Below, in pieces: positions 1 to 50,132 of a stretch of DNA of 64,000 nt. Below the pieces are notes generated by a model that saw only the letters and a program-made list of their open reading frames with translations, did not search any database and was not told the DNA's origin. A program made the translations under genes and the position numbers. The stretch spans positions 6,217-70,216 of the forward strand of contig CANHCV010000002.1 of NCBI GenBank assembly GCA_947459245.1, written 5' to 3'. The DNA is from Bacteroidota bacterium (GTDB lineage: Bacteria; Bacteroidota; Bacteroidia; UBA7662; CANHCV01). The first letter of the stretch is position 1. Each line of letters opens with the position of its first letter.

Positions 1-3000
1 AGGCGGAATTCCCGATTTCAACGTTTCTACTCTTCCCCTTGCTCAACGTGCTAATTTTCCATCTCGCCCTACTTTACCGGGGAACAATACCGGTGTTTCG
101 GGATATTATACCCCGGTAACCTACCAAGGGGCGTACAGTTTTCCATCGAACCAAGTGCCTGCAATTGCACCCGATACGCTGAAGATGACCACAAATACTG
201 GTGAGATTAGCTTTACTCCAACCAACCAAGGTGGTTTCGTAGTTGCCATTGAGTGCTTGGAATACCGGGTGGATCGCATTAACAATGTTACCACCTACTT
301 GGGTTCTACCCGACGTGATTTGCAATTCTTTTTTGATGCAAGTTGCACCGGGAATACAGCTCCCCAGGTTTTTGTAACCGATAGTTTTACCCTTCAAGTT
401 GGAGATACCCTCGACTTTAACGCCGTAGGGATTGATTTTGACCCCTCCCGCGACACGGTGATCATGAGTATTTCAGGCGATATTGTTGGAACCGGATCCG
501 GAAAAGCTTCCGTAACCATTACCCCAGGGCCAAGTCAAGCCATCATGAACGTGCGTTGGATTCCAACGTGCTCCTTCGCTCGAACTGCTCCGTACTTCTT
601 AATCATTACTGCTAAGGATAGTATTTGTGCCGTTACCCAAAAAACGGTTTATATTCGAGTACTACCGAAAGACATTATTCTTCCCCCCAGTTTACGCTGT
701 GCGGCTGTTTTAGGAGATGATTCCATCTCCCTTTCGTGGGTTCGAACCACTTCAGCATCAGCTGATTTTGGGAAGTATTACATTTATCGGAACCTGAATG
801 GTGGAGCTTTTTCACTGATTGATTCCATCCCCTCAAGAACTACGCAAACCTATTTGGATCGTAATGTTTCATTGGCAGATCAAAGCAATGTTTATGGGTA
901 TTTCATGGTGTCTGTAAATAATTGCGGCGAACCTGGATTAACGAGCGATACCATTTTTTCAATTTTACCCTTGGTTCAAAAAATTAGCAGTACCCAATTT
1001 CGGGTCACCTGGAATGAATTGACCACTGCCATCGGTAAAAGGTATGGAAAAATTTACAGGTTATACGAGGACCGAGGAACGGGTTATACGTTGGTACAAA
1101 CAGGAACTCAGCGATCCTTTGTTAGTTCAGGATGTGATTTCAGAATAAAGTACAAAGTAGAAACAACCGATAGCCAAACCACGTGCATTTCAAGTGGATT
1201 TTCTATTTGGAACGCTTTGAAAGATACCATTCGCCCAAGCACTCCTTCCATTACGTTGTTTTCCGTAGATGGAACAGGAAAATCTACAATTACCGTTCAA
1301 AAATCCGATAGCCTCGATGCCATTCGCTACCTGATTTATCGAAGTTCCAACGGTGGTGCGTATGTTCTCATCGATTCGGTCAATCAAACCGGTTTGGGCA
1401 CTTTTGTTTATCGCGATGCTTCCTCGAATCCTTCCTCCATCAAGTATTGCTACAAGGTGGCTGCTCGAGATTCCTGCGGTAATCTTAGTTTTCAATCTAC
1501 CGAAAATTGTGGAATTAAGTTAACGGGTATTCCTGGACACTTTTCTTCGGTATTAACGTGGACACCCTTTTCGAGTCCGTTGCTAAGCGGTTATGTTTTG
1601 CAACGTTGGAATGGCTCATTGTGGGTTACCATTGGTTCGTTTCCCACCACCCAACTGGGTTACGTAGACACTCCACGAGCATGTGGTATTTCCAACACCT
1701 ATCGGGTTTTTGGTACCTATGGCCCTTCCGATAGTTCATTCAGTAATTCGGTGGTGGTTACCCCCATCGACACGATCAAACCCATTTCTCCAAGATTGCT
1801 TTCGGTTTCTGCCATTTCCAATGATTCTGTTCAAGTTACCTTTTTTCGATCTCCCGATCCCCGGGTTAAACTGAGTCGTATTCAAGTAAGTACCAACGGT
1901 GGTGCTTTCTCCAATCTAACTTCATTTACCAATCCTACCACCGATACGTTAAGGTTCTGGCACGTGGGTTTGAACAATGCAGTGAATCAGTATTGTTACC
2001 GCGTTTTGGCTTTCGATTCGTGTTCAAATACCATTTCTGTTCCACTTGATACCCATTGTGTTACCCAACTTTCGGTAACGGGAGGAAGTCGATTGAATGC
2101 TTTAACATGGCCAAAATATCCTTTTTCCACAACCGATAGCGTTAGAATTGAACGGCAGGTTGGGACGAGTTGGACGAGATGGGCTCTTCTACCTGGAAGT
2201 GCAACCTCTTTCAACGATACCGGGATTGTATGTAATTCAACCATTACGTATCGGGTGATTTCGTTTTCTTCAAGCCTTTCGGCCATTTCTGTTATTCGTT
2301 CAGGGACGGTTTTCGATACCACTCGACCAGCATTGGCTTGGATCAATGGGATTTCATACCTCAACGATACGTTAACGCTGTTTTTCCCAACCCATTTTGA
2401 TGTGGCTGGGGTAAATATTTATTTTAAAACCAATGGTGGACCTCGCAGTTTATTGAGAAAATATTACAAGGTTAATTCTTCGAACATTCAAAAAGTAGCA
2501 TTACCCGCATTAACCTCCTCGGTAGATACCTTTGAATTCTCCATCACCACTTTCGATAGTTGTTCCGAATTGGAATCGGTTCAAAGTCCGTGGTATTTCC
2601 CCATTCACTTAAGGGGAACTGGAGGATCATACACCTCAAATTTATCGTTCAATGCCCCTGTTATTCCCTCCAACAATACACCCTCGTATACTCAAGTTAC
2701 TTTAGAAAGATTTTTGAGTCCACTTTTGGGATACCAAACCGTAAGAACCTTGACCAATATTGTTCCGGGTTTCAATTCAATCATTGATACGGTTCCAGAA
2801 TACATCATCAATCCTACCAACATCAACGATACCATTGATATTTTCTGTGGGCAAGGAATTCTTTACCGAATTTCTTATCTGGCCAATGTTCGTACTCCGA
2901 CGTTAGTCTATTCGAATGAAATAGAAACCTTCCCCATCGATACGTTTTATCCGAACAACGTAAACATCATTTATCTGTCGACCAAAGGAACGGATTCCAT

Positions 3001-6000
3001 TGAGGTTCAATGGAAGAAACACATTCGCCCATCGGTAACCAAGTATGTGGTTTACATTTCTCAAAATGGTGGTCCGTTTGTTTCTGTTGATACCGTTTTG
3101 AACAATTTGCCTTTTGTTTATTTCAAAAGGTACGGAAGATACAATATGACCAATACCCAAATTTCTGTTCGTATTGCAGCTTTCGACTCTTGTTCTGGTA
3201 AATGGTCGAGAAATTTTGAAACCCATACCCATTCTTTCCTTACTGGAACATCTCTAGCGGGAAGAAAAACTGCCGTTTTAAATTGGCGCTCTTATCGCGG
3301 TTATGTGCCTGGATTCCGCTACAAAATTATTCGGATGGATCCAGCCAATGGGGTGTCATCCGTTATTGCCAATGTACTGGATACGTTTTATACCGATACC
3401 ACCATGGCTTGTAACAACCCCATTAACTATACCATTTTTATTGATGAGATCAATGGAGATGGAGGATCGGGGTACACCAACACCATTACCTTAATTGGAA
3501 CAGATACCATTGCTCCAAACAAACCCATGATCAATAGCGTATCGGTGCGAGGTTTGAATCGGATTGAAATTTATCCCAATACCAATTTCCAAGACATCGA
3601 TAGTTTCGAGGTTTTTGGGAGAACGAAATTTGGAACATGGTCATCGCTCGGATTTTATAAAGCACAACCCGTGATTTCGGTGAATTTGTCGCCAACGATG
3701 GATTCTATTTTATGCATTCGAATGGTTGGCTTGGATTCTTGTGCAAATAACCGTTCTGTGCCATCCGATGAACATTGTATGATTCAATTAACAGGATCGC
3801 CCCAAAATCTTTCGAACCAATTGAATTGGTCGGCCTATTCGGGTATTTCCACCAACAACAAAATACACATTGTTCAAGAATTGATTTCCGGCGTTTGGCA
3901 AAATATCGATACCACCCTTTCCAATCAACTTCAATACACCCATCTGAATTTACCTTGCGGAATTGAAAAAACGTACCGCATTATGTATTTCGATACCATC
4001 TCATCCGTTTTTTCGTATTCGGATACGATTTCACTCACCCCATTTGACGTTACTCGCCCAAACAAACCATCCATCAACATAGCTACCGTAGTTGATCAGA
4101 ATACCATTTTCATTCGATGGAATGCAAGCACTTCCCCTGACGTGAATCGTTACGAGTTGTGGAAATCGCCATTGGGTACCAATAACTGGGTTTTGGACCA
4201 ATTGGCTTTCTACCGAGATTCGGCTTGGGTTACCGGAAATACCGTTGATACCATTTGGTCTTTCCGTTTGGTGGCCATTGATAGTTGCGGAAACAACCGA
4301 AGTGATACTTCCTTGGTGCAAACGGTTGCAAATATTCAAGGCATTGCCCAAAATTTACAACTTACCCTGTTCCTCAGTAATTACCGCTCAACAAGCCAAT
4401 ATTCGATGACCTTGGAAGAATATAGTCCGGTGAACGGTTGGATTGGTTCGACCACTAAAACGGGATTAACCGATACACTTGTTATCACGAATTTACCTTG
4501 TAACCAGCCATTCACGTACCGATTGGTGATTCAAGATTCGTTGGGGAATACGGTGAGCTATTCCGACTCCATCCAAGTTGTTCCTTTTGATACGATTACT
4601 CCCATTCAACCGGTTATTGAGTATTTAAGCACCAATGGGGTTGATTCCATTTCTCTTTCTTGGAGCGCAAGTCGGTCTTTGAATATTAAAAACTACCACA
4701 TTTACGGCGCTCCATACGGTACTCCCATAGCTTTTTTAGATTCTGTTCCCGATACGGTTCTGAATTATTCATTTTTGGCGAATAATGTTAATTCCCCTTG
4801 GGTCATTTATGTTCTTGCAAAAAATTATTGCAATGAAAAATTATCCGTATTTGAAGATTCTGTTGTAACGTATCATCCATTCCTTTCTCAAACAGGTTGT
4901 GATAAATCCATTCAATTGGATTGGTCCTTGGGGAAATTTGAATTTTTTATTGGAAATGATAGCATTGATGTTTACCGAGGCACGTCATTCAATACCCTAT
5001 CCCTGTTTCAAACCCTTGCACCCGGTACAGTGAATTTTGTTGATACCTCGGTTCGCTTTGGGACCAGGGTTTATTACCAAATCAAGGTCAATTCAGCAAA
5101 TTACCGGGATTATTCGCTTTCTTTTGTTTCAAACGACAGCATCGTTCCTTTGCCGATTCCTAGTATTATTTTAACTTCGGTACTTAAAACAGATCCAACC
5201 AATGGAAGCATTGAAGTAAAATGGAATTCAGTTCAAACAATTCCTTTTTCAAAATCGGTTAATCTTTACACCTCTACCACCATCAATGGCCCAAAAACCT
5301 TATTGGGTAGATTCTCGAGAACCGATAGCTTTTTTGTTTGGAATGGTATCAATACCGAAACCCAATCGTATTACTTCTTTGCTTATTTAGAAGATTCCTG
5401 CGGATTTGTTTCGGAATCCAATGCACCGCATCGCGATATCGATTTCTCGGTGAACAATGCTCAACTGGTGAATCAGATGAGTTGGAATCATTACGAAGGG
5501 GTTCCGGTTACTTCCTATCAGATCGAAGTATTGAACGGGACCACTTGGAATGTTTTTGATGTGGTGAGCAGTAGTCAAAATAGCTATACCCGATTCCCAG
5601 CGCCTTGTAACAACCAAATCACCTATCGTTTGGGTGCGATTTTGGCCAATGGATTGGTGAGTTATTCCGATACCGTTACCGTTCGGGTAATTGATAACAT
5701 TGTGCCCGATACGGCATTGATTTCACAAGCCACCGTTTTGAACGATTCGGTTGTTCAGCTTACCTTTTCCATGGCAGGAGCCGCAGATATTTATGGCTAC
5801 GCCATCCAGCAATCGATCAACGGTGGTCCCGCAACCACTGTTCAATTTGTTCCTCAAGGAACAATTGGTTCGGTGGTGACCATTTTCGATACCGTTAACA
5901 CCTTGAATAATCGTTTGTGTTATTCGGTACTTACCCAAGATAGCTGTTTGAACGTTTCGAAAGGCGATGATTTCTGTGTTATTCAGTTGGAAGGCCTTGC

Positions 6001-9000
6001 CGAAAACCTTCAAAATACGCTTCGTTGGAGGCCTTTTGCCGGTTACCCCATTCAAACGTATGAGGTGGCTGAATGGAATGGAGCTGCATGGAACACCATC
6101 GCCACCCAAAACGGAAATGATACCGATTTTGTACACGCTCCCCTCAATTGCAATCAAACCCGCCAATACCGAATCAAAGGATTGAGCAGCAATCCCGCGC
6201 TCTTTACTTTTTCAGATACCCTTCATTTGACTCCTTTCGACACCGTTCCGCCCGTGGCTCCAACCATCACAGGGGCTTCCGTTATTGCCAACGGAAGCAT
6301 TCAATTGGATTGGTCTCCCGTTGGAGGTGATGTGCGTTCCTATGAAGTGTGGATGAAAACAAGCGGAGTTTCTACTTTCACGAGCATGGGAGTGATTGGT
6401 CCGATTACCACTTTCCGAGCTACCGGTTTGAATACCCTCGATTCTTCCTATTGCTTTTACCTGATTGCCTTGGACACTTGTGCGGCCAATCGTTCCGTTC
6501 CTAGCACCGTTCATTGCGTTTCTCAACTTCGAGGAGTTGCTCAGAACCTTCAAAATACCCTAACCTGGAATGTTTATTCAGGAGTAAATCCTTTAAATAC
6601 CAAAGTTCAAATTTTCCAAGGCACTTGGAGCGATTTTGATTCCCTTTCTGGACTTGCCTCCAGCTATGTTCACGACAGTTTGCCTTGCCGTGTTCCCGTT
6701 ACCTACCGTTTGAAAATGGAACTTCCCAATGGATACCCTTCCTATTCCGATTCCATTACCCTCACGCCGTTTGATACCATTCCGCCAACTCAACCCACCA
6801 TTTTGAGGGCATCGGTTCTTTCCAGTTCTTCGGTTCAGCTCACCTGGGCACAAGGAAATGCCGATATTGGAAATTACGAAATTTGGGTAAAAGCTGCCAA
6901 TCAATCCACGTTTACTTTGGCCCAAACCGTTGGTGCAGTAACCACAGGAATTGTTTCCGGATTGAATACCACCGATAGTTCCTATTGCTTCCGTTTGGTT
7001 GCTTTGGATACCTGCTCCAATAACCGCTCTCCGTTCTCGGTGGATGAATGCGCCATGCAATTGCAAGGAGTTGCGCAGAACCTCCAAACTACGTTGAATT
7101 GGAATGCCTACAGTACCGTTTCTGGTCCGGTTAAATACTACGTTCAACGTCTTCAAGGAGGATTGTGGGGGAATGTTGATAGTACCGTTAATTTCACCAG
7201 TTACATTCATTTTAATGTACCGTGTTTAACCCCCATTCATTACCGAATCATGGCGGTTTATCCAGTGGCCGATACTTCGTTTTCAGACACCATTATTTTG
7301 GTTCCGTTCGATACCATCAAGCCATTGGCCACCTTGTTGAACAGCGCTTCCGTACAAGAAGATGGATCGATCACGGTGCGCTGGAATACATCTTCTAGCC
7401 CCGATGTTCGATTCCATGATGTTTACCGAGCTCCCATCGGCTCAACCGCATTCGTTTTGGTAGGAACCGCCACCGATGTTGACACCTTTAACGACGCTAC
7501 CGTTCCCAATGCAGGAACCCAGCGCTACACCTATCAAGTTGTGGCCATCGATTCGTGTAACCTGAACAACCGATCCATCGAATCCAATCCGCAAACGACC
7601 TTCAACCTTTCTGTAAGCAGTGGAGCCTGCCAACCAGCGGTAACCTTGAAATGGACGTCGTATTCTACGTTCACCAACGGTTTGTTGCGCTATCGAGTTT
7701 GGAGAAGCGCCGGTGGTCCTTGGACGTTGGTCGATTCCGTTTCGGCTTCCGATACCGACTTCATCGATTATACGGTTAATCCTCGATTCTCCTATTGCTA
7801 TCAAGTAGAAGCCGTTTCAAATGGCCAAACCTATTTAGCTACTTCCGACACTTCTTGTCAGGTTCCTCGACTTTACCCGAACCCGAACCCAACAACCATG
7901 TTCGGCATTACCACCACCGTTACAGGGGTAGCCAACGGGCAATCGAAAATTACCTGGAACCGATTCCCATTGAACGATTCTTTGGCGAGGGGATACGTGG
8001 TTTACCACAGCACCACCGGTGTTTGGCCCTATACACCCATCGCTACCGTTTCTCGTCCAAACGATACGGTTTTCTTCCACAACAACATCAATACAGCCGA
8101 TTCAATTCATTATTACACGGTGAAAGTGATCGATACCTGTGGAGCACAATCCGATTCTGCTGCACCATTCCGAACCATTAACTTGAATCTAACCATTGGC
8201 AATGGTGCCATGGTGTTGGATTGGTTACCGGTTTTGAATGATACCGTAAGCGGTTATGAAATTGAACGATCTTCCAATGGTTTGGCATTGGTACCCATCA
8301 CCATTTTATCGCCAACCACCACCCAATACATCGATAGTGCTGTTTCTTGTGGAACCCGTTACAGTTATCGCGTGAAAGGGTTGTATTCGTTGAAACCCAA
8401 TTTCACAACCTTCTCCGATAGCGTTTCTGGAATTGCAAGAGATACCATTCCACCAGATATTTCTGTAGTTGAAAAAGCCACCGTTTCTGTTCCCAATCGA
8501 AACGGTCAAATCGAATTGAGCTTCTACAGCCCAACCCAACAAAACCGAAGCGGTTACAACATTTACCGTAAAACTGGAAATGGAGCATGGTCATTGTTGA
8601 GAACATTCAATACTACCGCATTTGGATTAATCACGACCACCGATTTTGGGGTGAATACCTTGGATAGCACCTACCAATACCGCCTAAGCAGTTTGGATAG
8701 TTGCGGCAATGAATCGCAATTCGGCGAAATTCACAGTCCTTCCAACATTTCGGTTACCGCCGTAAGCCAAGCCAATAACATTTCATGGTCGGCTTACCTC
8801 GGATTTGATTCGTTGATTTATCGCATTGAAAGAAGCATCAATGGGGGGAATTTCCAATTCTTCTACGATCTTCAAGGAACATCTTATGTCGATTCATCGA
8901 TCAAATGCGATACGCAATACACCTATCGGGTTAAAGTGTACGACATTCAAAACCCAACCGTTATTTCTTTGAGCGATACAGCAACGGTGATTGGGATCGA

Positions 9001-10396
9001 TTTAACCGCTCCTGCTACTCCGGTGCTGGGCGTTGTTTCGGTAATCAATACCAATCCGTTCGGTGGAACCGTTCAAGTTAATTTTGCCAACAGCACCTCC
9101 ACCGACGTTCGTTTCCACATCCTCGAAAGACGTACTGCCAATTCTGCGAATTGGAGCGTTCGAGCTCGAATTCCTGCCGGAGGAGCAACCATCTTCAACG
9201 ATTTTGGAAATACTTCCGACAGCATTTATGTGTATCGAGTTTACGCCATCGATACCTGCGGAAACGTTTCTGCATTCTCTGCCCAACACGCTTTCGTTCA
9301 TTTGGAAACAACGCCGTTGAATGAATCGATGCAGTTGAATTGGTCGCGTTACGTTGGTTTCCCTGTTGGAAAATATGATGTAGTTCGCGATGGAAATGTG
9401 ATTGCTTCTTTCTTAGGAGGAAACGACACCAGCATGATCGATACGCAATTGATTTGTACTCAAACCTACCAATATTTCATTCGAACCTATGGGTTGGATC
9501 AATTAACCACATCCCTTTCGAACGTAGAGAACAACTCGCCCTTCGATACCACCGCTCCTTTGAATACCTATTTGCAGGTCGCTTCCGTTGAACGCGGAGA
9601 TGCTTCCAACAAAATTACCTTCCGTGCAAGTACTTCTTTTGATGTGCGCACGTATCAAATTTGGAGAAGAACCAATGGACTTGGTGCGCCAGTTGTGGTT
9701 TACCAAACCACGAATCCCGTTGTTGGATTTACTACGGTCATCGATTCGTTGAACGTGAAGGCCGATGCAGAATCTTATTGCTACAGCATTGTTGCTTTCG
9801 ACTATTGCGGAAACCAAAGTCCTGAAAGCAATTTGGGCTGTACCATGTTGGCAAAAGCCACGTATTCCAAATTGAAATCGACCATCACCTGGACGCCCTA
9901 CAGCCAGTGGTGGGCTGGAGTTGACCACTACGAAGTGGAACGTACCACCGATGGAACCAACTGGATTCAGGTTGCCAATGTGCCCACCTCCGTGAATAAA
10001 TTTATTGATGAAGATTTGCCCGCTGATGCCGGCCAACTTTGTTACCGCGTTATGGCCGTTGAAACTCCTGGCAATTTCAATGAAAAATCGTACTCCAATA
10101 CTGCTTGCGTGGTTCCCGAACCCGTGGTTCATATCCCAACAGCATTTTCACCTGGAACTTCTGCTGGATTGAATGATAATTTCGGACCGGTTGCGGCCTT
10201 CTACGATCAATTTGAATTGACCATTTTCAACCGTTGGGGTGAAAAAATCTTTGAAGGAAAATCGAAAAACGATCGTTGGGACGGAAAACACAAAGGTGAA
10301 TTGGTTCAAACCGGCCTTTATGTTTACCAATTGATTGTGTACGATTTCAACGGTAAACCTTACCGATTCCAGGGAACTCTTTCGGTGGTACGATGA
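1..10396 (+). CDS. Giant cell-surface adhesin-like protein (more than 3400 aa in the window, 5' end outside it). It is built of tandem FN3/Ig-like beta-sandwich domain pairs and ends in a T9SS type-B C-terminal sorting domain (the gliding-motility-associated CTD).
   Basis: The reading frame is open from position 2 with no upstream stop. The ORF-track M at 155 is internal. The C-terminus reads AFSPGTSAGLNDNF...IFNRWGEKIFEG...WDGKHKGE...GLYVYQLIVYDF, which matches the type-B CTD (TIGR04131-like) consensus FSPNGDGxND...fnRwG...WdG...GvY.Y. A module of about 180 aa recurs many times (...LTPFDTxxP... CYRVxAxDSCxNxS ... NLQNTLxWxxY ... YSDxxxLTPFDT). Confidence 0.85.
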   Translation, partial: GGIPDFNVSTLPLAQRANFPSRPTLPGNNTGVSGYYTPVTYQGAYSFPSNQVPAIAPDTLKMTTNTGEISFTPTNQGGFVVAIECLEYRVDRINNVTTYLGSTRRDLQFFFDASCTGNTAPQVFVTDSFTLQVGDTLDFNAVGIDFDPSRDTVIMSISGDIVGTGSGKASVTITPGPSQAIMNVRWIPTCSFARTAPYFLIITAKDSICAVTQKTVYIRVLPKDIILPPSLRCAAVLGDDSISLSWVRTTSASADFGKYYIYRNLNGGAFSLIDSIPSRTTQTYLDRNVSLADQSNVYGYFMVSVNNCGEPGLTSDTIFSILPLVQKISSTQFRVTWNELTTAIGKRYGKIYRLYEDRGTGYTLVQTGTQRSFVSSGCDFRIKYKVETTDSQTTCISSGFSIWNALKDTIRPSTPSITLFSVDGTGKSTITVQKSDSLDAIRYLIYRSSNGGAYVLIDSVNQTGLGTFVYRDASSNPSSIKYCYKVAARDSCGNLSFQSTENCGIKLTGIPGHFSSVLTWTPFSSPLLSGYVLQRWNGSLWVTIGSFPTTQLGYVDTPRACGISNTYRVFGTYGPSDSSFSNSVVVTPIDTIKPISPRLLSVSAISNDSVQVTFFRSPDPRVKLSRIQVSTNGGAFSNLTSFTNPTTDTLRFWHVGLNNAVNQYCYRVLAFDSCSNTISVPLDTHCVTQLSVTGGSRLNALTWPKYPFSTTDSVRIERQVGTSWTRWALLPGSATSFNDTGIVCNSTITYRVISFSSSLSAISVIRSGTVFDTTRPALAWINGISYLNDTLTLFFPTHFDVAGVNIYFKTNGGPRSLLRKYYKVNSSNIQKVALPALTSSVDTFEFSITTFDSCSELESVQSPWYFPIHLRGTGGSYTSNLSFNAPVIPSNNTPSYTQVTLERFLSPLLGYQTVRTLTNIVPGFNSIIDTVPEYIINPTNINDTIDIFCGQGILYRISYLANVRTPTLVYSNEIETFPIDTFYPNNVNIIYLSTKGTDSIEVQWKKHIRPSVTKYVVYISQNGGPFVSVDTVLNNLPFVYFKRYGRYNMTNTQISVRIAAFDSCSGKWSRNFETHTHSFLTGTSLAGRKTAVLNWRSYRGYVPGFRYKIIRMDPANGVSSVIANVLDTFYTDTTMACNNPINYTIFIDEINGDGGSGYTNTITLIGTDTIAPNKPMINSVSVRGLNRIEIYPNTNFQDIDSFEVFGRTKFGTWSSLGFYKAQPVISVNLSPTMDSILCIRMVGLDSCANNRSVPSDEHCMIQLTGSPQNLSNQLNWSAYSGISTNNKIHIVQELISGVWQNIDTTLSNQLQYTHLNLPCGIEKTYRIMYFDTISSVFSYSDTISLTPFDVTRPNKPSINIATVVDQNTIFIRWNASTSPDVNRYELWKSPLGTNNWVLDQLAFYRDSAWVTGNTVDTIWSFRLVAIDSCGNNRSDTSLVQTVANIQGIAQNLQLTLFLSNYRSTSQYSMTLEEYSPVNGWIGSTTKTGLTDTLVITNLPCNQPFTYRLVIQDSLGNTVSYSDSIQVVPFDTITPIQPVIEYLSTNGVDSISLSWSASRSLNIKNYHIYGAPYGTPIAFLDSVPDTVLNYSFLANNVNSPWVIYVLAKNYCNEKLSVFEDSVVTYHPFLSQTGCDKSIQLDWSLGKFEFFIGNDSIDVYRGTSFNTLSLFQTLAPGTVNFVDTSVRFGTRVYYQIKVNSANYRDYSLSFVSNDSIVPLPIPSIILTSVLKTDPTNGSIEVKWNSVQTIPFSKSVNLYTSTTINGPKTLLGRFSRTDSFFVWNGINTETQSYYFFAYLEDSCGFVSESNAPHRDIDFSVNNAQLVNQMSWNHYEGVPVTSYQIEVLNGTTWNVFDVVSSSQNSYTRFPAPCNNQITYRLGAILANGLVSYSDTVTVRVIDNIVPDTALISQATVLNDSVVQLTFSMAGAADIYGYAIQQSINGGPATTVQFVPQGTIGSVVTIFDTVNTLNNRLCYSVLTQDSCLNVSKGDDFCVIQLEGLAENLQNTLRWRPFAGYPIQTYEVAEWNGAAWNTIATQNGNDTDFVHAPLNCNQTRQYRIKGLSSNPALFTFSDTLHLTPFDTVPPVAPTITGASVIANGSIQLDWSPVGGDVRSYEVWMKTSGVSTFTSMGVIGPITTFRATGLNTLDSSYCFYLIALDTCAANRSVPSTVHCVSQLRGVAQNLQNTLTWNVYSGVNPLNTKVQIFQGTWSDFDSLSGLASSYVHDSLPCRVPVTYRLKMELPNGYPSYSDSITLTPFDTIPPTQPTILRASVLSSSSVQLTWAQGNADIGNYEIWVKAANQSTFTLAQTVGAVTTGIVSGLNTTDSSYCFRLVALDTCSNNRSPFSVDECAMQLQGVAQNLQTTLNWNAYSTVSGPVKYYVQRLQGGLWGNVDSTVNFTSYIHFNVPCLTPIHYRIMAVYPVADTSFSDTIILVPFDTIKPLATLLNSASVQEDGSITVRWNTSSSPDVRFHDVYRAPIGSTAFVLVGTATDVDTFNDATVPNAGTQRYTYQVVAIDSCNLNNRSIESNPQTTFNLSVSSGACQPAVTLKWTSYSTFTNGLLRYRVWRSAGGPWTLVDSVSASDTDFIDYTVNPRFSYCYQVEAVSNGQTYLATSDTSCQVPRLYPNPNPTTMFGITTTVTGVANGQSKITWNRFPLNDSLARGYVVYHSTTGVWPYTPIATVSRPNDTVFFHNNINTADSIHYYTVKVIDTCGAQSDSAAPFRTINLNLTIGNGAMVLDWLPVLNDTVSGYEIERSSNGLALVPITILSPTTTQYIDSAVSCGTRYSYRVKGLYSLKPNFTTFSDSVSGIARDTIPPDISVVEKATVSVPNRNGQIELSFYSPTQQNRSGYNIYRKTGNGAWSLLRTFNTTAFGLITTTDFGVNTLDSTYQYRLSSLDSCGNESQFGEIHSPSNISVTAVSQANNISWSAYLGFDSLIYRIERSINGGNFQFFYDLQGTSYVDSSIKCDTQYTYRVKVYDIQNPTVISLSDTATVIGIDLTAPATPVLGVVSVINTNPFGGTVQVNFANSTSTDVRFHILERRTANSANWSVRARIPAGGATIFNDFGNTSDSIYVYRVYAIDTCGNVSAFSAQHAFVHLETTPLNESMQLNWSRYVGFPVGKYDVVRDGNVIASFLGGNDTSMIDTQLICTQTYQYFIRTYGLDQLTTSLSNVENNSPFDTTAPLNTYLQVASVERGDASNKITFRASTSFDVRTYQIWRRTNGLGAPVVVYQTTNPVVGFTTVIDSLNVKADAESYCYSIVAFDYCGNQSPESNLGCTMLAKATYSKLKSTITWTPYSQWWAGVDHYEVERTTDGTNWIQVANVPTSVNKFIDEDLPADAGQLCYRVMAVETPGNFNEKSYSNTACVVPEPVVHIPTAFSPGTSAGLNDNFGPVAAFYDQFELTIFNRWGEKIFEGKSKNDRWDGKHKGELVQTGLYVYQLIVYDFNGKPYRFQGTLSVVR
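660..9600 (+). repeat. In-frame tandem coding repeats, about 17 units of roughly 535-600 bp (about 180 aa each, two beta-sandwich domains per unit), inside the giant adhesin gene
   Basis: The unit-boundary motif (T/P)PFDT(I/V)xP recurs at about 1222, 1775, 2318, 2931, 3493, 4039, 4580, 5133, 5693, 6230, 6765, 7303, 7860, 8440, 8998 and 9540. Paralogous stretches are recognisable at the DNA level, for example ggagttgctcagaaccttcaaaatac at about 6535 versus ggagttgcgcagaacctccaaactac at about 7070. Confidence 0.7.
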
Positions 10397-11232
10397 AAAT
10401 TATCATCGCAGGAGGAACCGGATTTGTTGGTCGAGCTTTGGCGAAAGAACTCCAAGCGAAACAACACCGCGTTGAAATCATTTCTCGAAAAACCCATGGA
10501 AATTGGGATTCAGCCGATGCGCTGGATCCCAATTTTTTTTTAGAGGCCGATGTCGTAATTAATTTGGCAGGAGCTGGAATTGCCGACCGTCGTTGGTCTG
10601 CCGAACGAAAATCGGAAATCATTCAATCTCGGGTGCAGACCACCCAAAAATGGGTGAATCTTTTGCAACACACATCGCGTCCAATAACGTTCATCCAAGC
10701 ATCAGCGGTTGGGTATTACGGAAGTGAAATTCACCTTCCACCCGCCGATGAAGAAACCTCACCCGGCAACGATTTTCTGTCGGAAGTATGTGTGAAATGG
10801 GAGGCACCGTTGGCATCTCTTTCCAATCCAAACGTTCGGTGGTGCATCACTCGCTTTGGGGTGGTAACCGATGAAGGGGGAGGAGCGGTGAAAAAAATGT
10901 TGCCTTTGTTCCGCCTTGGTTTTGGCTCGGCGGTTGCCCCGGGCAAACAGTGGATGAACCCGGTTTCCTTGGCCTCGGTGGTAAATGTTTTGATCCAACT
11001 GATTCAGCGCCCCGAGTATTCAGGGGTTTTCAATGTGGTTCAACCGCAAAATTATACGGCCGAAGGATTCGCGAAGCAATTGGGAAGAAAACTAAATCGG
11101 CCGGTTTGGTTTCCCAAAGTACCCGCTTGGTTGATGCGGTTGGTTTTTGGAGAAATGGCCGATGTATTGGTAAAAGGTAGAAAAGTGAAGTCCAAAAGAC
11201 TTCCTTCTTCCTGGTTTATTGATCCATTTTAA
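10393..11232 (+). CDS. NAD-dependent epimerase/dehydratase of the TIGR01777 / YfcH (SDR39U1, DUF1731-containing) family
   Basis: N-terminal Rossmann motif MKIIIAGGTGFVGRAL and overall YfcH-like architecture of about 280 aa. The ATG overlaps the TGA stop of the giant adhesin gene (ATGA at 10393-10396). Confidence 0.8.
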   Translation: MKIIIAGGTGFVGRALAKELQAKQHRVEIISRKTHGNWDSADALDPNFFLEADVVINLAGAGIADRRWSAERKSEIIQSRVQTTQKWVNLLQHTSRPITFIQASAVGYYGSEIHLPPADEETSPGNDFLSEVCVKWEAPLASLSNPNVRWCITRFGVVTDEGGGAVKKMLPLFRLGFGSAVAPGKQWMNPVSLASVVNVLIQLIQRPEYSGVFNVVQPQNYTAEGFAKQLGRKLNRPVWFPKVPAWLMRLVFGEMADVLVKGRKVKSKRLPSSWFIDPF

Positions 11233-11990
11233 TGCGCTTCCAATAATTTTTGAGCAAAAACATCGGGCAACTCAGTTTGCCGGATGGCAGCAGCAGCCTT
11301 ATCAACTGGATATTCAAAGCGTTGAAATTCAACCTTGAAGCTGTTTTCGTTGGAATAGGGAAGGGTAACATCCAAATCTAAAATCACATAGCCGCCGCGA
11401 GGGTCTCCGTCCTTGGGTTTTCCTACACTCCCCAAATTGATGGCGTGAAACCTTTTTTCTTCAGAAAATAAGGTGCGATGGTAAGGAATATGGGTATGTC
11501 CGAAACACATCACATCGCAATGAGATTGCTCGAAAATGCGGATTAAACTTTTCTCTTCCCGATCTTCAAACAAATATTCATTCACCTTGCGCGGACTCCC
11601 GTGCACCAACATCATTCGTTTGGATTCATCCGCAAACGGCAAGTCCAGGTGAATGTGTTGTGGAAGTTGCCGCAAATATTTCCGCTCTTCGTTGCCAATA
11701 TTGGCATTGGTGAAGGCGATGGATTTGGCTCCATTGGCGCGGTCTTCATCGGTTTTATAAGCGCATCCGCAATCGTCGCTGTTTAATCCCACTCCAACGT
11801 CGTAATTCCCAGCGATGCAGGGAATTTTTCTTTTTCGAATTTCTTGAACAACTTCATTGGGCCAAGGGGCATAACCAACCAAATCGCCTAGGCAGTACCA
11901 AGCATCAATATTTTGTTCCTCAACATGTTGGAAAAAGGCCTGCAAGGCAGGAAGATTGGCGTGAATATCGCTGAAAAGGGCTATTCTCAT
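11229..11990 (-). CDS. Calcineurin-like metallophosphoesterase (YfcE/MPP family)
   Basis: Motifs [17 protein letters not shown] and GHTH are typical of metallophosphatases. The ATG overlaps the acr3 stop (ATGA at 11987-11990). Confidence 0.75.
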
Positions 11991-28866: not shown

Positions 28867-28931
28867 AAAATCAAAATTACATGGAAAGTTGTTCCTTGAA
28901 ACGTAATTTTGGAAAAAATAATTGTCACAAT

Positions 28932-44438: not shown

Positions 44439-44526
44439 GGCAAATTTTCAGAAAAAATCTTTCCACTTTTTTTTCTATCGGGAAAATCATCTATCTTAGC
44501 ACACCTTCCAACTAAAGAAAAACCAA

Positions 44527-45480
44527 ATGAGAAAGGTTACCCTCCTCTTATTCGTTGCTGTTGCTTCCATGATTTCCACTGTGGGTTTCGCCCAACAGGA
44601 CTGGAAATTCAATCAATATGCCCTCAATGGCATGGGTTTTAATCCGGCCTTTACCGGTTTAGGAACCAACATTTCTGCTACCGGTTTGTACCGGAATCAA
44701 TACATGGGATTAGCGGATTTCAATCCGACCTCGAGAAATTTTAACATTCACTCCAAAGTGAACAAGGTAAAAGGAGGTTTGGGCTTAAATATTCTAGACG
44801 ACGAATACGGTTTAGAAAAGTTTACCGGGGTTTATTTGTCGTATGCTTACCACAAAGACAATGTTTTGCCTTTCGAAGGAACCCTTTCTGCTGGAATTAG
44901 TGTTGGAATGCTTCAAATCTCAAGTCAGTTCAGTAAACTAAATCCCAGAACCAACCCTGATCCAATTTTGGTAACTTCAGATATCAGTGGTTTTGGATTA
45001 GATGTAAATGCAGGGTTGCTGTTTACCGCACCCAATTATTATGTTGGAATTTCTGCAACACACCTAACCAATCCAAATGTAGAGTTGCAAAACAATGCTT
45101 CCGTGAACATGCAACCCCACTTATTTATTACTGGTGGTTACACGTACAAGCTCAACGAAAAAATTAATTTGATGCCTTCAGTTTTGATCAAGTCAATTGT
45201 GAAAAAATCCCAATTTGATTTTTCGACCATTGGGATGTATTCCAACAAGTATTGGGGTGGACTTGGGTATTCCACTTCCGATGCAATTTACTTGTTGGCT
45301 GGAGGTTATTTAAAAGGAAATCAATCAGATGGAGGATTGAAATTAGGAGTTTCTTACGGTGCTACCATGAATAAGTTGGGCAGCATTGGAGGACGAAACA
45401 GCGTTGAGGCGATGTTGGGTTACAACTTCAAAATTCAAATTCCTGTTAAAATTCCACCTACCGACCCCATATTTCATTGA
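44527..45480 (+). CDS. porP: PorP/SprF-family T9SS outer-membrane protein
   Basis: Signal peptide, then QQDWKFNQYALNGMGFNPAFTG, which is the PorP/SprF family N-terminal signature. It is a beta-barrel of about 315 aa located immediately upstream of gldK. Confidence 0.8.
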   Translation: MRKVTLLLFVAVASMISTVGFAQQDWKFNQYALNGMGFNPAFTGLGTNISATGLYRNQYMGLADFNPTSRNFNIHSKVNKVKGGLGLNILDDEYGLEKFTGVYLSYAYHKDNVLPFEGTLSAGISVGMLQISSQFSKLNPRTNPDPILVTSDISGFGLDVNAGLLFTAPNYYVGISATHLTNPNVELQNNASVNMQPHLFITGGYTYKLNEKINLMPSVLIKSIVKKSQFDFSTIGMYSNKYWGGLGYSTSDAIYLLAGGYLKGNQSDGGLKLGVSYGATMNKLGSIGGRNSVEAMLGYNFKIQIPVKIPPTDPIFH

Positions 45481-45553
45481 TAGTTGGAGTTTTTGTTTTG
45501 TATTTTTCCACTCTGTTAAAAACATCGATCACTAGTAGTTGTAAATGATACTT

Positions 45554-46798
45554 ATGAAGAGACTTGCTCTTTTTTCTTTAACGCTTTTCGGCATGGTTGC
45601 CTTAAGCAGTTGTGGTGGCTCCGGAAATGGGGAGCTTATCGGGGTACAAGGTCGTGAGGCCTATTTCCCAGGAGAACCTTATGGAATGGTATTTGTACCA
45701 CAAGGAAATTTCCAGGCTGGGCAAAGCGATCAGGACGTGATGTTCTCGCTTAATGCGCCTACCAAAACCGTTTCAGTTGGAGCGTTCTATATGGATGAAA
45801 CTGAAATTACGAACAACGAGTACCGTCAGTTCGTTCAATGGGTTGCAGATTCCATCGCTCATACCAAATTGAACCACATCAAAGAAGGTCCTGCCGGTGA
45901 AAAGTTCATCGATTGGGAACAAGAAATTAAGTGGAACGATGAGGCGTTGAAAGACATGTTCTATGCTGGCGATGACCAAGTATTCGGAAAACAAGAATTG
46001 GATGTTCGCAAGTTGACCTATTTGTACCAGTGGTACGATTTGAACAATGCTGCTCATAACAAGGATGTAACTGCAAAACGCAACAAGTTCATTGTTCGCG
46101 ATTCGGTTTACGTTTATCCTGATACGCTTTGTTGGACTCGCGATTTCGCGTACAGCTACAACGAGCCGATGACTCAGAACTATTACAGCCACCCAGCTTA
46201 CGATGATTATCCTGTCGTTGGTGTGAACTGGAATCAGGCAAATGCTTTCTGCTCTTGGAGAACCGACTATGTGAATACCTTCCGTCGTGAAAACAAAGAG
46301 GTTGAAGCCCCACCGTACCACTTGCCAACAGAATGGCAATTTGAATACGCTGCTCGTGGTGGTTTGAATACTTCTCCTTATCCTTGGGGTGGTCCTTACA
46401 TCCGTAACGATAAAGGATGTTTCTTGGCTAACTTCAAACCCGGCCGTGGTAACTACACCGATGATGGTGGTCACTACACCGTTAAAGTTTACAGCTACAA
46501 TCCTAACGATTTCGGACTTTATAACATGTCTGGTAACGTTGCTGAGTGGACCCTTACTTCTTACGAAGAATCTGTTTACAGCACCGTTCACGATATGAAT
46601 CCAGATTTCCGTTACCAGCGCAAAAAAGGAGACGACATTGTTCGCACTCGTAAAGTTATCCGCGGTGGATCTTGGAAAGATGCTGCTCACATGTTGCGCG
46701 TTTCTACCCGCGACTTTGAATACCAAGACACTTCCAAAAGTTACATTGGCTTCCGTTGTATCCAAGATTTCTTGGGCCGTTCCATGGAAGACTTTTAA
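45554..46798 (+). CDS. gldK: Gliding motility / T9SS lipoprotein GldK (PorK) with an FGE-sulfatase-like domain
   Basis: Lipobox LALFSLTLFGMVALSSC and the SUMF1/FGE-fold motif RGGSWKDAAHMLRVSTR. It is followed by gldLMN. Confidence 0.9.
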   Translation: MKRLALFSLTLFGMVALSSCGGSGNGELIGVQGREAYFPGEPYGMVFVPQGNFQAGQSDQDVMFSLNAPTKTVSVGAFYMDETEITNNEYRQFVQWVADSIAHTKLNHIKEGPAGEKFIDWEQEIKWNDEALKDMFYAGDDQVFGKQELDVRKLTYLYQWYDLNNAAHNKDVTAKRNKFIVRDSVYVYPDTLCWTRDFAYSYNEPMTQNYYSHPAYDDYPVVGVNWNQANAFCSWRTDYVNTFRRENKEVEAPPYHLPTEWQFEYAARGGLNTSPYPWGGPYIRNDKGCFLANFKPGRGNYTDDGGHYTVKVYSYNPNDFGLYNMSGNVAEWTLTSYEESVYSTVHDMNPDFRYQRKKGDDIVRTRKVIRGGSWKDAAHMLRVSTRDFEYQDTSKSYIGFRCIQDFLGRSMEDF

Positions 46799-46852
46799 TC
46801 AGAGAAATAACAAATAAAAAAATAAAAAGTAAAACATTTAAAACACAAAACT

Positions 46853-47515
46853 ATGTCAGGTGGTAATTTCATGACTTCCAAAAAAGGAAAAACAATCTTA
46901 GGATATGCATATGCCTGGGGTGCTGCGGTAGTAATCTTGGGTGCGTTATTCAAAATCATGCACTGGAAAGGCGCTTCTGAAATGTTAATTATTGGTATGG
47001 GTACTGAGGCGGTTATCTTCTTCGTTTCTGCTTTCGAACCTGTACACATGGAAATCGATTGGTCTTTGGTTTATCCTGAATTGAAAGGTTCTGGAGCTGA
47101 TCCATCCAAGAAATCAAAATCAGTAACTGAGCAATTGGATGACATGCTTGGCAAGTCTAAAGTTGGAACTGAATTGATCGATTCTTTAGGAAAAGGAATG
47201 ACCAACTTGAGCGATACCGTTGGAAAAATGTCGAAATTGGGTGATGCTTCTGTAGCAACTCAAGAGTTTTCTACCAACGTTAAAACTGCAGCTGGTTCTG
47301 TTTCTGCTTTCAACAACATTACCGTTGAAGCTGGTGGAAAAATTTCTGAAATGACCAAAGCTTACGGTGGTGTTGCTAACTCTATCGCTACTTTGAACGC
47401 TGCTGCTGCTGATGCAGAAGTGTACAAAGCAGAGTTGAGCAAGTTGACTTCTAACTTGAAGAACTTGAACAACATCTACGGCGGTATGTTGTCTGCAATG
47501 ACCGGTAATAAATAA
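46853..47515 (+). CDS. gldL: Gliding motility / T9SS protein GldL (PorL)
   Basis: Two N-terminal TM helices (GAAVVILGALFKIMHWKG, LIIGMGTEAVIFFVSAF) and a cytoplasmic coiled region. About 220 aa. Confidence 0.9.
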   Translation: MSGGNFMTSKKGKTILGYAYAWGAAVVILGALFKIMHWKGASEMLIIGMGTEAVIFFVSAFEPVHMEIDWSLVYPELKGSGADPSKKSKSVTEQLDDMLGKSKVGTELIDSLGKGMTNLSDTVGKMSKLGDASVATQEFSTNVKTAAGSVSAFNNITVEAGGKISEMTKAYGGVANSIATLNAAAADAEVYKAELSKLTSNLKNLNNIYGGMLSAMTGNK

Positions 47516-47554
47516 TTTTAATCCAACACATTTTAATCAAATAAACTTGTAACT

Positions 47555-49144: not shown

Positions 49145-49148
49145 TCTT

Positions 49149-50132
49149 ATGAAAAAGGTTATCCTATTGTTAGCAGTTGTTGGTATGTTTTCTTCTTTTG
49201 ATGCTATGGCTCAAAAAAAGAAAAAGAAACCAGCTCCTAAAAAACCAACCACAACTCAAACTACTCCCGTAGTTGAAACGCCAGCAGCTCCTCCTGCACC
49301 AAAAATTGATCCGGCAGATGTTCGTCCAAAAGTTGGACAAGCTAATCCAAACATCAAAGTGGTTGATGGAGGTTTCGAACGCCGTTCAGCTTCAGCTAAA
49401 GGAGCCATTGATCTTCCACAATTGCGTGAGAGTGATATCATTTGGTCTAAAGTTGTTTACCGTCAGATCGATTTGAAAGAGAAACAAAATTTGCCTTTGG
49501 CTTATAAAGGAAATCAACAAAAGAAGGATTTTCGCCTTCAGTTGATGGAATTGATGAAGTCTGGTAAATTGGAAGGATTCATCTTCGGTCGTTTGTTCGC
49601 TGATTATGCTGTAGAATTGGATGATTCTCAGGTGATGAGTAAAAACAACGTACTTAGCCAAGTAAACATCAAGGAAGTTATTCCTGTGGATGAAGACGGT
49701 GATGGTACCGCTGAAAGCTCAAAAGACACCTTGATTCCAATTGATGCTGATAAAATTACTGCTCTTCGTGTTAAAGAAGAATGGTATTTCGACAAGCAGT
49801 ACGGTCGTTTCGATGTTCGTATCGTAGCTATTGCTCCTTGTTACCGTAACCCTTCAGGTGATGGATACATCACCATCGCTTGGGTTTATTATCCAGCTCT
49901 TCGTCCTTTCATTTCTACTACCGAAATGATTTGCTGGCAGAACGATAATGCTAAAATTACTTTTGATGATTTCTTCATCAAGCGTTTGTTCTCCTCTGTT
50001 ATTTACCGCGAGGTTGAAGTAGGCGATCGTAACATTGAACAGTACACAGGTCCTGGTACTGCAGCTTTGAAAGAAGCCGATAAAATCAAAAACAAAATCA
50101 TCGATTGGGAACAATCGTTGTGGGAATATTGA
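49149..50132 (+). CDS. gldN: Gliding motility / T9SS protein GldN (PorN)
   Basis: Signal peptide MKKVILLLAVVGMFSSFDAMAQ at an ATG 5 bp after the gldM stop. Length and position are GldN-like. Confidence 0.85.
   Translation: MKKVILLLAVVGMFSSFDAMAQKKKKKPAPKKPTTTQTTPVVETPAAPPAPKIDPADVRPKVGQANPNIKVVDGGFERRSASAKGAIDLPQLRESDIIWSKVVYRQIDLKEKQNLPLAYKGNQQKKDFRLQLMELMKSGKLEGFIFGRLFADYAVELDDSQVMSKNNVLSQVNIKEVIPVDEDGDGTAESSKDTLIPIDADKITALRVKEEWYFDKQYGRFDVRIVAIAPCYRNPSGDGYITIAWVYYPALRPFISTTEMICWQNDNAKITFDDFFIKRLFSSVIYREVEVGDRNIEQYTGPGTAALKEADKIKNKIIDWEQSLWEY

What the first reader, a model, noticed from the sequence alone, without database searches (positions are those of the whole stretch)
10380..11232. 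Type-B CTD adhesin is translationally coupled (ATGA) to a YfcH-like epimerase instead of a cognate PorP/SprF partner
Established work in Flavobacterium shows that type-B CTD cargo usually needs a dedicated PorP/SprF-like protein encoded immediately downstream, as with sprB-sprF. Here the gene whose ATG overlaps the adhesin stop codon is an SDR39U1/YfcH-type NAD-dependent epimerase/dehydratase. The only PorP/SprF gene in the window sits about 34 kb away, in front of gldK. One reading is that this adhesin uses the generic PorP. Another is that the coupled SDR enzyme takes part in modifying or attaching the adhesin. Neither arrangement is described.
Basis: partly seen in the sequence, partly recalled or inferred. 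Interest (0 to 1): 0.55.

Follow-up and report, generated by a model that had tools for sequence, protein, structure and literature searches.

The report
Orphan type-B adhesin overlapping a YfcH gene
A giant secreted surface adhesin gene ends four bases inside an ordinary YfcH-type oxidoreductase gene and has no partner shuttle gene beside it, but partnerless adhesins of this kind are already described and common, and the enzyme pairing is confined to one small uncultured lineage, so the finding is largely ordinary.

Summary
A giant ORF runs off the window's 5' end (3685 aa in the source contig) and ends at 10396 with a CHU_C/type-B T9SS sorting domain. A 279-aa TIGR01777 (YfcH/SDR39U1) gene starts at 10393, giving an ATGA overlap. 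The only PorP/SprF gene in the window (44527-45480) precedes gldKLMN. In a 94%-identical MAG there is no PorP/SprF in the 9.3 kb upstream either.

The interpretation mostly fails.
- "Orphan" type-B cargo served by a shuttle encoded elsewhere is published: F. johnsoniae Fjoh_1677, and P. gingivalis PG1035 with PorP.
- Of 68 metagenomic type-B CTD genes I surveyed, only 11 have PorP/SprF as the next gene.
- ATGA overlaps occur at 6 of 38 co-directional junctions in this window, several between unrelated housekeeping genes.
- The adhesin-yfcH junction is conserved within one uncultured freshwater Bacteroidota clade, down to 55-57% protein identity and despite changed downstream flanks.
- The pairing is absent from four more distant YfcH contexts (at least two from Bacteroidota MAGs) and from all 80 surveyed type-B loci.

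Most likely this is an orphan type-B adhesin using a trans-encoded PorP/SprF, with an unrelated atypical SDR gene at the 3' end of its transcription unit. A functional link to the SDR is not excluded but is unlikely (about 0.1).

The parts
2..10396 (+). Giant T9SS cargo/adhesin gene, 5'-truncated by the window edge. The window holds 3464 of 3685 aa. The protein is a repetitive, cysteine-containing, Ig/FN3-like module array.
   Evidence: The frame is open from base 2. Full length is 3685 aa in the source contig and in L004. The L004 ortholog starts with the signal peptide MRRFFWLLIGFFLLGPFAQA. There are faint fn3 hits.
10130..10393 (+). Type-B (CHU_C) T9SS C-terminal sorting domain of the adhesin.
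   Evidence: PF13585 E 2e-11 over residues 3377-3453. TIGR04131 32.2 bits against a cutoff of 35. It aligns with 11 other CHU_C tails and shares the conserved IP.AF.P...N..F.P, RWG, W.G and G..Y.Y positions.
10393..10396 (+). ATGA overlap of the yfcH start codon and the adhesin stop codon.
   Evidence: The junction CGATGAA is invariant in six relatives down to 57% YfcH identity.
10393..11232 (+). yfcH-like atypical SDR (TIGR01777 / SDR39U1 family), 279 aa, cytoplasmic, with no signal peptide.
   Evidence: TIGR01777 260.8 bits. Epimerase plus partial DUF1731. PDB 4B4O E 4.5e-39. Sequence.
11229..11990 (-). Convergent calcineurin-like phosphoesterase gene. Its stop codon overlaps the yfcH stop (TTAA at 11229-11232), leaving no room for a terminator after yfcH.
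44527..45480 (+). The only PorP/SprF-family gene in the window, and a candidate trans-acting shuttle/anchor for the adhesin.
   Evidence: PF11751 E 3e-54. TIGR03519 207.7 bits. No other PorP_SprF hit among the window ORFs scanned.
45545..50132 (+). gldK-gldL-gldM-gldN T9SS core genes immediately downstream of porP.
   Evidence: TIGR03525, TIGR03513, TIGR03517 and TIGR03523, all above their cutoffs.

Best explanation
The adhesin is an 'orphan' type-B T9SS substrate. It is exported by Sec (signal peptide) and passed through the T9SS translocon. It is then collected and anchored by a PorP/SprF-family outer-membrane barrel encoded elsewhere in the genome. That barrel is either the porP in front of gldKLMN in this window or another unlinked paralogue.

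The yfcH-like gene encodes a cytoplasmic atypical SDR of a near-universal family whose biochemical function is unknown. It sits at the 3' end of the adhesin transcription unit and is probably co-transcribed and re-initiated at the ATGA overlap. It has no specific role in the adhesin's secretion, modification or attachment. The pairing persists in this lineage through shared ancestry, and because overlapping codons make the junction hard to break.

Shown: the gene anatomy, the family assignments, the absence of an adjacent PorP/SprF, the clade-limited conservation, and the frequency of orphan arrangements.

Inferred: use of a trans-encoded shuttle, co-transcription, and the lack of a functional link.
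For: - No PorP/SprF lies downstream or within 9.3 kb upstream in the 94%-identical L004.
- A complete porP-gldKLMN set is in the same window.
- Published precedents exist for unlinked shuttles. Fjoh_1677 serves three orphan type-B CTDs (PMC12618676). P. gingivalis PorP binds the unlinked type-B protein PG1035 (PMC9143113).
- In a survey of 68 type-B CTD genes, only 11 are followed by PorP_SprF. The rest are followed by more than 100 other families.
- The three nearest smaller homologs of the adhesin tail also lack a PorP/SprF within 6 kb. One overlaps coaX in the same way.
- ATGA overlaps occur at 6 of 38 junctions in the window, including the chain M16 peptidase > O-methyltransferase > glucosaminidase > hydrolase > RNase HII.
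- YfcH homologs occur in organisms of phyla not known to have a T9SS, such as Marinospirillum, Bacillus and Caldilineaceae, as well as in humans.
- Four more distant YfcH genes (35-43% identity; at least two from Bacteroidota MAGs) sit in unrelated contexts with no CHU_C gene beside them.
- No YfcH homolog is found among 324 ORFs around 80 type-B CTD genes.
Against: - The adhesin-yfcH junction, down to the ATGA, is retained in every member of the clade found. YfcH identity is 94, 87, 84, 78 and 57%, and the adhesin is 55% identical and collinear in the most distant member.
- Meanwhile the gene downstream of yfcH has been replaced at least twice. That is more persistence than for the neighbouring junction.
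- I could not census PorP/SprF paralogues or a second yfcH copy in the whole genome.
- No transcript data are available. An internal promoter for yfcH inside the adhesin's 3' end cannot be excluded (searches were uninformative).
Confidence: 0.72

Rival explanations
1. The YfcH-like SDR is a functional partner of the adhesin. It would be co-expressed to make or reduce a nucleotide-sugar or lipid-linked precursor used to glycosylate or otherwise decorate the giant adhesin, or to remodel the envelope when the adhesin is produced.
For: - The pair and its 4-bp overlap are conserved across the whole clade, down to 55-57% identity for both proteins, while the downstream flank changes.
- The fold family is that of sugar-nucleotide epimerases and reductases.
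- A GT2 glycosyltransferase lies at the head of the cluster in L004.
- Glycosyltransferases are the second most frequent downstream neighbours of type-B CTD genes in the survey, at 4 of 68.
Against: - No enzymatic activity has been shown for any TIGR01777/SDR39U1 member (PMC11711299).
- The protein has no signal peptide, so it cannot act on the exported adhesin directly.
- The family is found in organisms of phyla not known to have a T9SS.
- Four more distant YfcH contexts and 80 type-B loci show no such pairing.
- The conserved clade may be shallow, because adhesins evolve fast, so shared ancestry suffices to explain it.
- ATGA overlaps join unrelated genes in this genome.
Confidence: 0.1
2. 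The adhesin is served by a dedicated SprF-like shuttle located elsewhere in the genome, as Fjoh_1677 serves F. johnsoniae orphans, and not by the porP in front of gldK. This would be an unlinked but still specific pair.
For: - In F. johnsoniae the three orphan CTDs use a specific unlinked SprF-like protein, and pairing is specific (PMC12618676).
- Only 64 kb of this genome was examined for PorP/SprF genes, plus about 9 kb upstream in a relative.
Against: - No other PorP/SprF gene was seen in the sequence available.
- In P. gingivalis the PorP encoded with porKLMN itself binds the type-B protein (PMC9143113).
- The data here cannot discriminate between the two shuttles.
Confidence: 0.35
3. The CHU_C-like tail is not a PorP/SprF-dependent type-B signal at all. 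It could be a degenerate or alternative CTD handled by PorV or released, which would explain why no partner is adjacent.
For: TIGR04131 scores 32.2 bits, below its cutoff of 35.
Against: - PF13585 is above its gathering threshold in the window protein (44 bits) and in its ortholog (48.6 bits).
- The tail aligns end to end with bona fide CHU_C tails and keeps the conserved positions.
- There is no Por_Secre_tail (type-A) hit.
Confidence: 0.05

Closest known systems
Orphan type-B CTD substrates of Flavobacterium johnsoniae (Fjoh_1123, Fjoh_1720, Fjoh_4934) served by the unlinked SprF-like shuttle Fjoh_1677 (PMC12618676)
   Same: A type-B CTD protein whose gene is not next to any porP/sprF-like gene. 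The shuttle is presumed to be encoded elsewhere.
   Different: The cargo here is far larger (3685 aa) and comes from an uncultured freshwater Bacteroidota lineage. Its shuttle has not been identified. Its stop codon overlaps a yfcH-type gene.
Porphyromonas gingivalis PG1035-PorP-PorE complex (PMC9143113)
   Same: A type-B CTD protein is anchored by PorP. PG1035 is the only type-B protein in that organism, and its gene has no dedicated sprF-like partner. The candidate shuttle here likewise directly precedes the gldKLMN (porKLMN) genes. That P. gingivalis porP is the first gene of porPKLMN is from my own knowledge, not from a passage I read.
   Different: PG1035 is about 50 kDa and may act as a cap on PorP. 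Here the cargo is a giant adhesin. Binding to PorP is inferred, not shown.
sprB-sprF (sprCDBF operon) of F. johnsoniae
   Same: A giant repetitive type-B CTD surface adhesin in a gliding/T9SS-bearing Bacteroidota.
   Different: The defining downstream cognate sprF gene is absent. There are no SprB-repeat Pfam hits. The downstream gene is an SDR instead.
YfcH / SDR39U1 / ThyD (TIGR01777) atypical SDR family
   Same: A full-length match above the curated cutoff, with Epimerase plus DUF1731 architecture and an N-terminal GGTGFVG motif. The closest solved structure is human SDR39U1 (4B4O).
   Different: It is about 20 aa shorter at the C-terminus, with only the first 28 of 47 DUF1731 positions matched. 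It is at most 43% identical to any member outside its own clade. It is the only context seen in which the gene overlaps a T9SS cargo gene.

Membership tests
Type-B T9SS C-terminal sorting domain (PF13585 CHU_C / TIGR04131) | Profile match above the curated threshold at the extreme C-terminus | tested here: met
   PF13585 scores 44.2 bits (cutoff 27) over residues 3377-3453 of 3464, ending 11 aa before the stop. The ortholog scores 48.6 bits.
Type-B T9SS C-terminal sorting domain (PF13585 CHU_C / TIGR04131) | TIGR04131 match above NCBI's cutoff | tested here: inconclusive
   32.2 bits against a cutoff of 35. The match is full length (2-83 of 85) but just below threshold.
Type-B T9SS C-terminal sorting domain (PF13585 CHU_C / TIGR04131) | Sec signal peptide at the N-terminus and a T9SS in the same genome | tested here: met
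   The signal peptide is present in the 94%-identical full-length ortholog. porP-gldKLMN is in the window.
Type-B T9SS C-terminal sorting domain (PF13585 CHU_C / TIGR04131) | Secretion dependent on a PorP/SprF-like protein and independent of PorV | not testable with these tools
   This needs genetics or pull-downs.
Cognate type-B cargo / SprF-like operon (sprB-sprF type) | porP/sprF-like gene immediately downstream of the cargo gene | tested here: not met
   The downstream gene is TIGR01777 yfcH. The genes after it are convergent Metallophos and SBF genes.
Cognate type-B cargo / SprF-like operon (sprB-sprF type) | porP/sprF-like or porE-like gene elsewhere in the same cluster (upstream) | tested here: not met
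   In L004, the 9.3 kb upstream holds a GT2 gene and a 2707-aa type-A CTD protein only.
YfcH / SDR39U1 (TIGR01777) | Match to TIGR01777 above the curated cutoff, with Epimerase plus DUF1731 architecture | tested here: met
   260.8 bits against 207.35. PF01370 plus PF08338. 4B4O E 4.5e-39.
YfcH / SDR39U1 (TIGR01777) | Glycine-rich NAD(P)-binding motif at the N-terminus | tested here: met
   MKIIIAGGTGFVGRAL.
YfcH / SDR39U1 (TIGR01777) | Defined enzymatic activity | not testable with these tools
   None has been demonstrated for the family (PMC11711299).
PorP/SprF (PF11751 / TIGR03519), for the gene at 44527-45480 | Full-length profile match above the cutoff | tested here: met
   PF11751 184.8 bits. 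TIGR03519 207.7 bits against 90.55.

The most novel reading that the evidence does not exclude
In this uncultured freshwater Bacteroidota clade, a divergent and C-terminally shortened YfcH-type SDR has been recruited as an obligatory, translationally coupled partner of a 3685-aa type-B adhesin. It would, for example, supply a modified sugar or reduced cofactor needed for the adhesin's decoration or anchoring. That would give the first functional context for the orphan SDR39U1/YfcH family and a new accessory step for type-B T9SS cargo.
Probability: 0.08. Interest if true: 0.6.

Novelty: new member of a known kind. Interest (0 to 1): 0.17.

Why it matters
The finding matters little as it stands. 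It adds one more giant 'orphan' type-B T9SS adhesin, from an uncultured freshwater lineage, to a category that is already described.

The survey is the more useful by-product. Among type-B CTD genes resembling this one in metagenomes, only about one in six is followed by a PorP/SprF gene. The F. johnsoniae cognate-pair rule therefore should not be used as a genome-reading expectation across Bacteroidota, and unlinked shuttles are probably the norm.

If the low-probability reading were true, it would give a first handle on the function of the widespread but uncharacterised YfcH/SDR39U1 family.

Tried and rejected
- A search of the 5.8-billion-protein database with the whole 3464-aa adhesin timed out.
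- Searches with its first and last 600 aa returned no full-length giant orthologs, only proteins of about 900 aa or less. I therefore could not look up the adhesin itself. I reached its upstream region through the genome-contig scan instead.
- P0002 looked like a possible fragmented ortholog. It turned out to be an unrelated Fib_succ_major protein sharing only an N-terminal module.
- L006-L008 from the genome scan are giant proteins with FlgD_ig/type-A-like tails, not type-B, so they were not used for the synteny count.
- A 12-sequence CTD alignment was too divergent for the metagenome scan. A 4-sequence subset worked.
- Promoter and terminator scans gave counts no different from shuffles. Neither the sigma-70 consensus nor the Bacteroidota-type pattern TTG-N19-TAnnTTTG produced a hit in the adhesin's last 400 nt. 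The question of an internal yfcH promoter stays open.
- I considered that the CTD might not be type-B, because TIGR04131 is just sub-threshold. I rejected this on the Pfam score and the alignment.
- I could not census PorP/SprF or yfcH copies genome-wide, because only loci and not whole MAGs are retrievable.
Full report
**1. What is in the sequence**

The frame of the large ORF is open from base 2 of the window to a TGA at 10394-10396. The gene is cut by the window edge. On the source contig (ENA metagenome assembly ERZ27263785, k141_1923204, 97 kb) the product is 3685 aa. It is also 3685 aa in a 94%-identical MAG, CANMVY010000013 ('Bacteroidetes bacterium ZE-Jul18-35', locus L004).

The L004 ortholog begins with a typical signal peptide, MRRFFWLLIGFFLLGPFAQA. 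The C-terminus matches Pfam CHU_C (PF13585, 44 bits, cutoff 27). It matches TIGR04131 full length but just below the cutoff (32.2 against 35). Aligned with eleven other CHU_C tails, it keeps the conserved positions (IP.AF.P, N..F.P, RWG, W.G, G.Y.Y, G). It has no type-A Por_Secre_tail hit. I therefore accept it as a type-B CTD cargo.

The next gene starts at the ATG at 10393 (sequence CG-ATGA-AA). It encodes 279 aa beginning MKIIIAGGTGFVG. It matches TIGR01777 'yfcH' at 260.8 bits (cutoff 207.35), and also Epimerase plus a partial DUF1731. The closest solved structure is human SDR39U1, 4B4O (E 4.5e-39). It has no signal peptide.

Its TAA stop overlaps the stop of a convergent Metallophos gene (11229-11990, minus strand). 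Beyond that gene lie an SBF/ACR3-like transporter and an ArsR-type regulator.

The only PorP_SprF protein among the window's ORFs is at 44527-45480. It is immediately followed by gldK, gldL, gldM and gldN.

**2. Is the ATGA overlap special?**

It is not. A simple longest-ORF gene model of the window gives 38 co-directional junctions, and 6 of them are ATGA overlaps. One run at 50608-55064 chains five genes by ATGA or 1-bp overlaps: an M16 peptidase, an O-methyltransferase, a glucosaminidase/LysM protein, an alpha/beta hydrolase and RNase HII. In this compact genome the overlap indicates co-transcription and probably re-initiation. It does not indicate a shared function.

**3. Is a PorP/SprF hidden just outside the window?**

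It is not. In L004 the 9.3 kb upstream of the adhesin holds two genes:
- a GT2 glycosyltransferase;
- a 2707-aa protein with LTD and GEVED domains and a type-A Por_Secre_tail.

A strong hairpin followed by a T-run lies between that gene and the adhesin. In an 84%-identical MAG (L005) the upstream gene is again a type-A CTD protein. The first refutation clause is not met.

**4. Is the adhesin-yfcH pairing conserved?**

A search of the 5.8-billion-protein collection with the YfcH-like protein gave a tight clade of 279-aa proteins at 78-94% identity. It also gave one cluster at 57% (P0021, 282 aa). Everything else is at 43% identity or less and comes from many phyla, including Marinospirillum, Bacillus, Caldilineaceae, Ignavibacteriales, Flavobacteriaceae and Vicingaceae.

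Every clade member whose context could be read has the adhesin ending 4 bp inside yfcH:
- L004, 94%;
- L011, 87%;
- L005, 84%;
- L013, 78%;
- L009/L010, 57%.

The heptamer CGATGAA is invariant in all six sequences. In L009 the adhesin is 3689 aa, collinear with the window's and 55% identical to it.

The gene after yfcH differs between lineages. It is a convergent Metallophos gene here, a co-directional sulfatase-like gene in L013, and a small convergent lipoprotein gene in L009. None of the latter has a homolog in the window. The pair has therefore outlasted at least two rearrangements at its 3' border.

Outside the clade the pairing disappears. Four YfcH genes at 35-43% identity sit in four unrelated housekeeping contexts with no CHU_C gene beside them. 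Two of these are from MAGs labelled Bacteroidota and one from a Vicingaceae MAG; the fourth has no taxon name.

The second refutation clause is therefore half met. The adjacency is conserved in close relatives but is not a property of either family.

**5. How unusual is a type-B cargo without an adjacent PorP/SprF?**

*Literature.* In F. johnsoniae 9 of 12 type-B genes are adjacent to an sprF-like gene. The other three are called 'orphans' and are served by the unlinked shuttle Fjoh_1677, and cross-talk between pairs exists (PMC12618676). In P. gingivalis the single type-B protein, PG1035, binds PorP (PMC9143113).

*Data.* The three nearest smaller homologs of the adhesin tail (P0127, P0128, P0129; about 700 aa, CHU_C) have no PorP/SprF within 6 kb. 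They are followed by a GT2-like gene, by coaX with overlapping stop and start, and by IMPDH.

I then scanned the metagenome collection with a 4-sequence CTD alignment. I took the 80 best loci and located the stop codon after each CTD match. It lies within 60 nt of the match in 79 of the 80. I kept the 68 loci with at least 1.09 kb of downstream sequence.

Pfam finds PorP_SprF in 11 of the 68 immediate downstream genes. An HMM that I iterated from the window's PorP finds the same 11, plus one as the second downstream gene. The other 57 downstream genes fall into more than 100 families. The most frequent are GT2 glycosyltransferases (4) and further CHU_C proteins (4).

No YfcH homolog occurs among the 324 ORFs of these loci.

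*Caveat.* The loci were ranked by similarity to this adhesin's CTD, so they may over-represent an 'orphan-type' CTD subfamily. Only 5 kb on each side was examined.

**6. What the YfcH-like protein is**

The family (TIGR01777; E. coli YfcH, B. subtilis YfhF, human and plant SDR39U1, cyanobacterial ThyD/Slr1223) has an epimerase-like fold, but no activity has been demonstrated. Known phenotypes concern cell or plastid division and high-light acclimation (PMC11711299). Its wide distribution outside Bacteroidota argues against a core role in T9SS cargo handling. Because it is cytoplasmic, it could influence an exported adhesin only indirectly, through a precursor.

**7. Most likely mechanism**

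The adhesin is an orphan type-B substrate. It follows the route Sec export, then the T9SS translocon, then capture and anchoring by a trans-encoded PorP/SprF barrel. That barrel is either the gldK-linked PorP, 34 kb away, or an unlinked paralogue elsewhere, and I cannot tell which. yfcH rides on the 3' end of the adhesin transcript and re-initiates at the ATGA, with no specific functional link. The junction persists through common descent and because overlapping codons resist rearrangement. Confidence is about 0.7.

The rival is a clade-specific functional recruitment of the SDR. It is kept alive only by the junction's persistence against changing flanks, and by the loose recurrence of sugar-related genes near type-B cargo. 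I give it about 0.1.

**8. Novelty and score**

The adhesin family is new in the sense that it is uncharacterised and restricted to an uncultured freshwater lineage. The arrangement belongs to a known kind, the orphan type-B cargo. The yfcH overlap is a lineage-specific curiosity. A specialist would not be surprised by it. Interest is 0.17.

Noticed in passing
L004:1141-9264 (upstream of the window's left edge in the 94%-identical MAG); hairpin at L004:9279-9310: The gene immediately upstream of the adhesin is another giant T9SS cargo: 2707 aa, with three Lamin-tail domains, a GEVED domain and a type-A Por_Secre_tail. It is preceded by a GT2 glycosyltransferase. A perfect 10-bp hairpin plus T-run separates it from the adhesin. 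A type-A and a type-B giant cargo therefore sit in tandem.
   Followed up: partly
window 50608-55064 (- strand): Five functionally unrelated genes are chained by three ATGA overlaps and one 1-bp overlap: M16 peptidase, O-methyltransferase, glucosaminidase/LysM, alpha/beta hydrolase and RNase HII. This shows how routinely the genome overlaps start and stop codons.
   Followed up: yes
window 11229-11232: The stop codons of yfcH (+) and the convergent Metallophos gene (-) overlap in the tetranucleotide TTAA. There is no intergenic space for a terminator on either strand, so the two transcripts must run into each other.
   Followed up: no
L024:5287-6123, L020:8172-8984 and two further loci of alignment A4: GT2/CHGN-like glycosyltransferases are the second most frequent gene directly downstream of type-B CTD genes in the survey (4 of 68). 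They include the loci whose CTDs are most similar to this adhesin's. This may be a recurrent cargo-glycosyltransferase association. Some of the cases could be orthologous loci.
   Followed up: no
L021:3415-5532 / 5532-6281: In a Crocinitomicaceae MAG, a 705-aa CHU_C protein homologous to the adhesin's tail overlaps by 1 bp a type III pantothenate kinase (coaX) gene. This is another type-B cargo gene overlapped by a housekeeping gene.
   Followed up: partly
L023:414-8728 (contig k141_990954 of the same metagenome): A tandem array of five Fib_succ_major (PF09603) genes. The last (P0002, 902 aa) shares 60% identity with part of the adhesin's N-terminal region, so that N-terminal module is reused in a different protein family.
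   Followed up: no
L006, L007, L008 (giant ORFs of 3440-4091 aa): Giant proteins distantly related to the adhesin's N-terminal modules carry dockerin/cohesin-like and He_PIG domains and a FlgD_ig-type C-terminal tail instead of CHU_C. One of them, with a TonB-dependent receptor next to it, is on a contig binned as 'Synechococcus sp. UW140'. That looks like a binning contaminant.
   Followed up: no
window 42811-45480: porP is preceded by a DUF4271 membrane protein gene and a hemD (uroporphyrinogen-III synthase) gene on the same strand, and followed by gldKLMN.
   Followed up: no
window 26617-30152: Two divergently transcribed T9SS type-A cargo genes: an FG-GAP repeat protein of 749 aa, and a 423-aa protein with a borderline Por_Secre_tail. 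They are 14 bp apart.
   Followed up: no
window 10393-11232: The clade's YfcH proteins are 279-282 aa, about 20 aa shorter than typical family members (295-307 aa). Only the first 28 of 47 DUF1731 positions are matched. The C-terminal segment, which forms a membrane-binding amphipathic helix in the plant homolog and is predicted to do so in the cyanobacterial one, appears to be missing.
   Followed up: no
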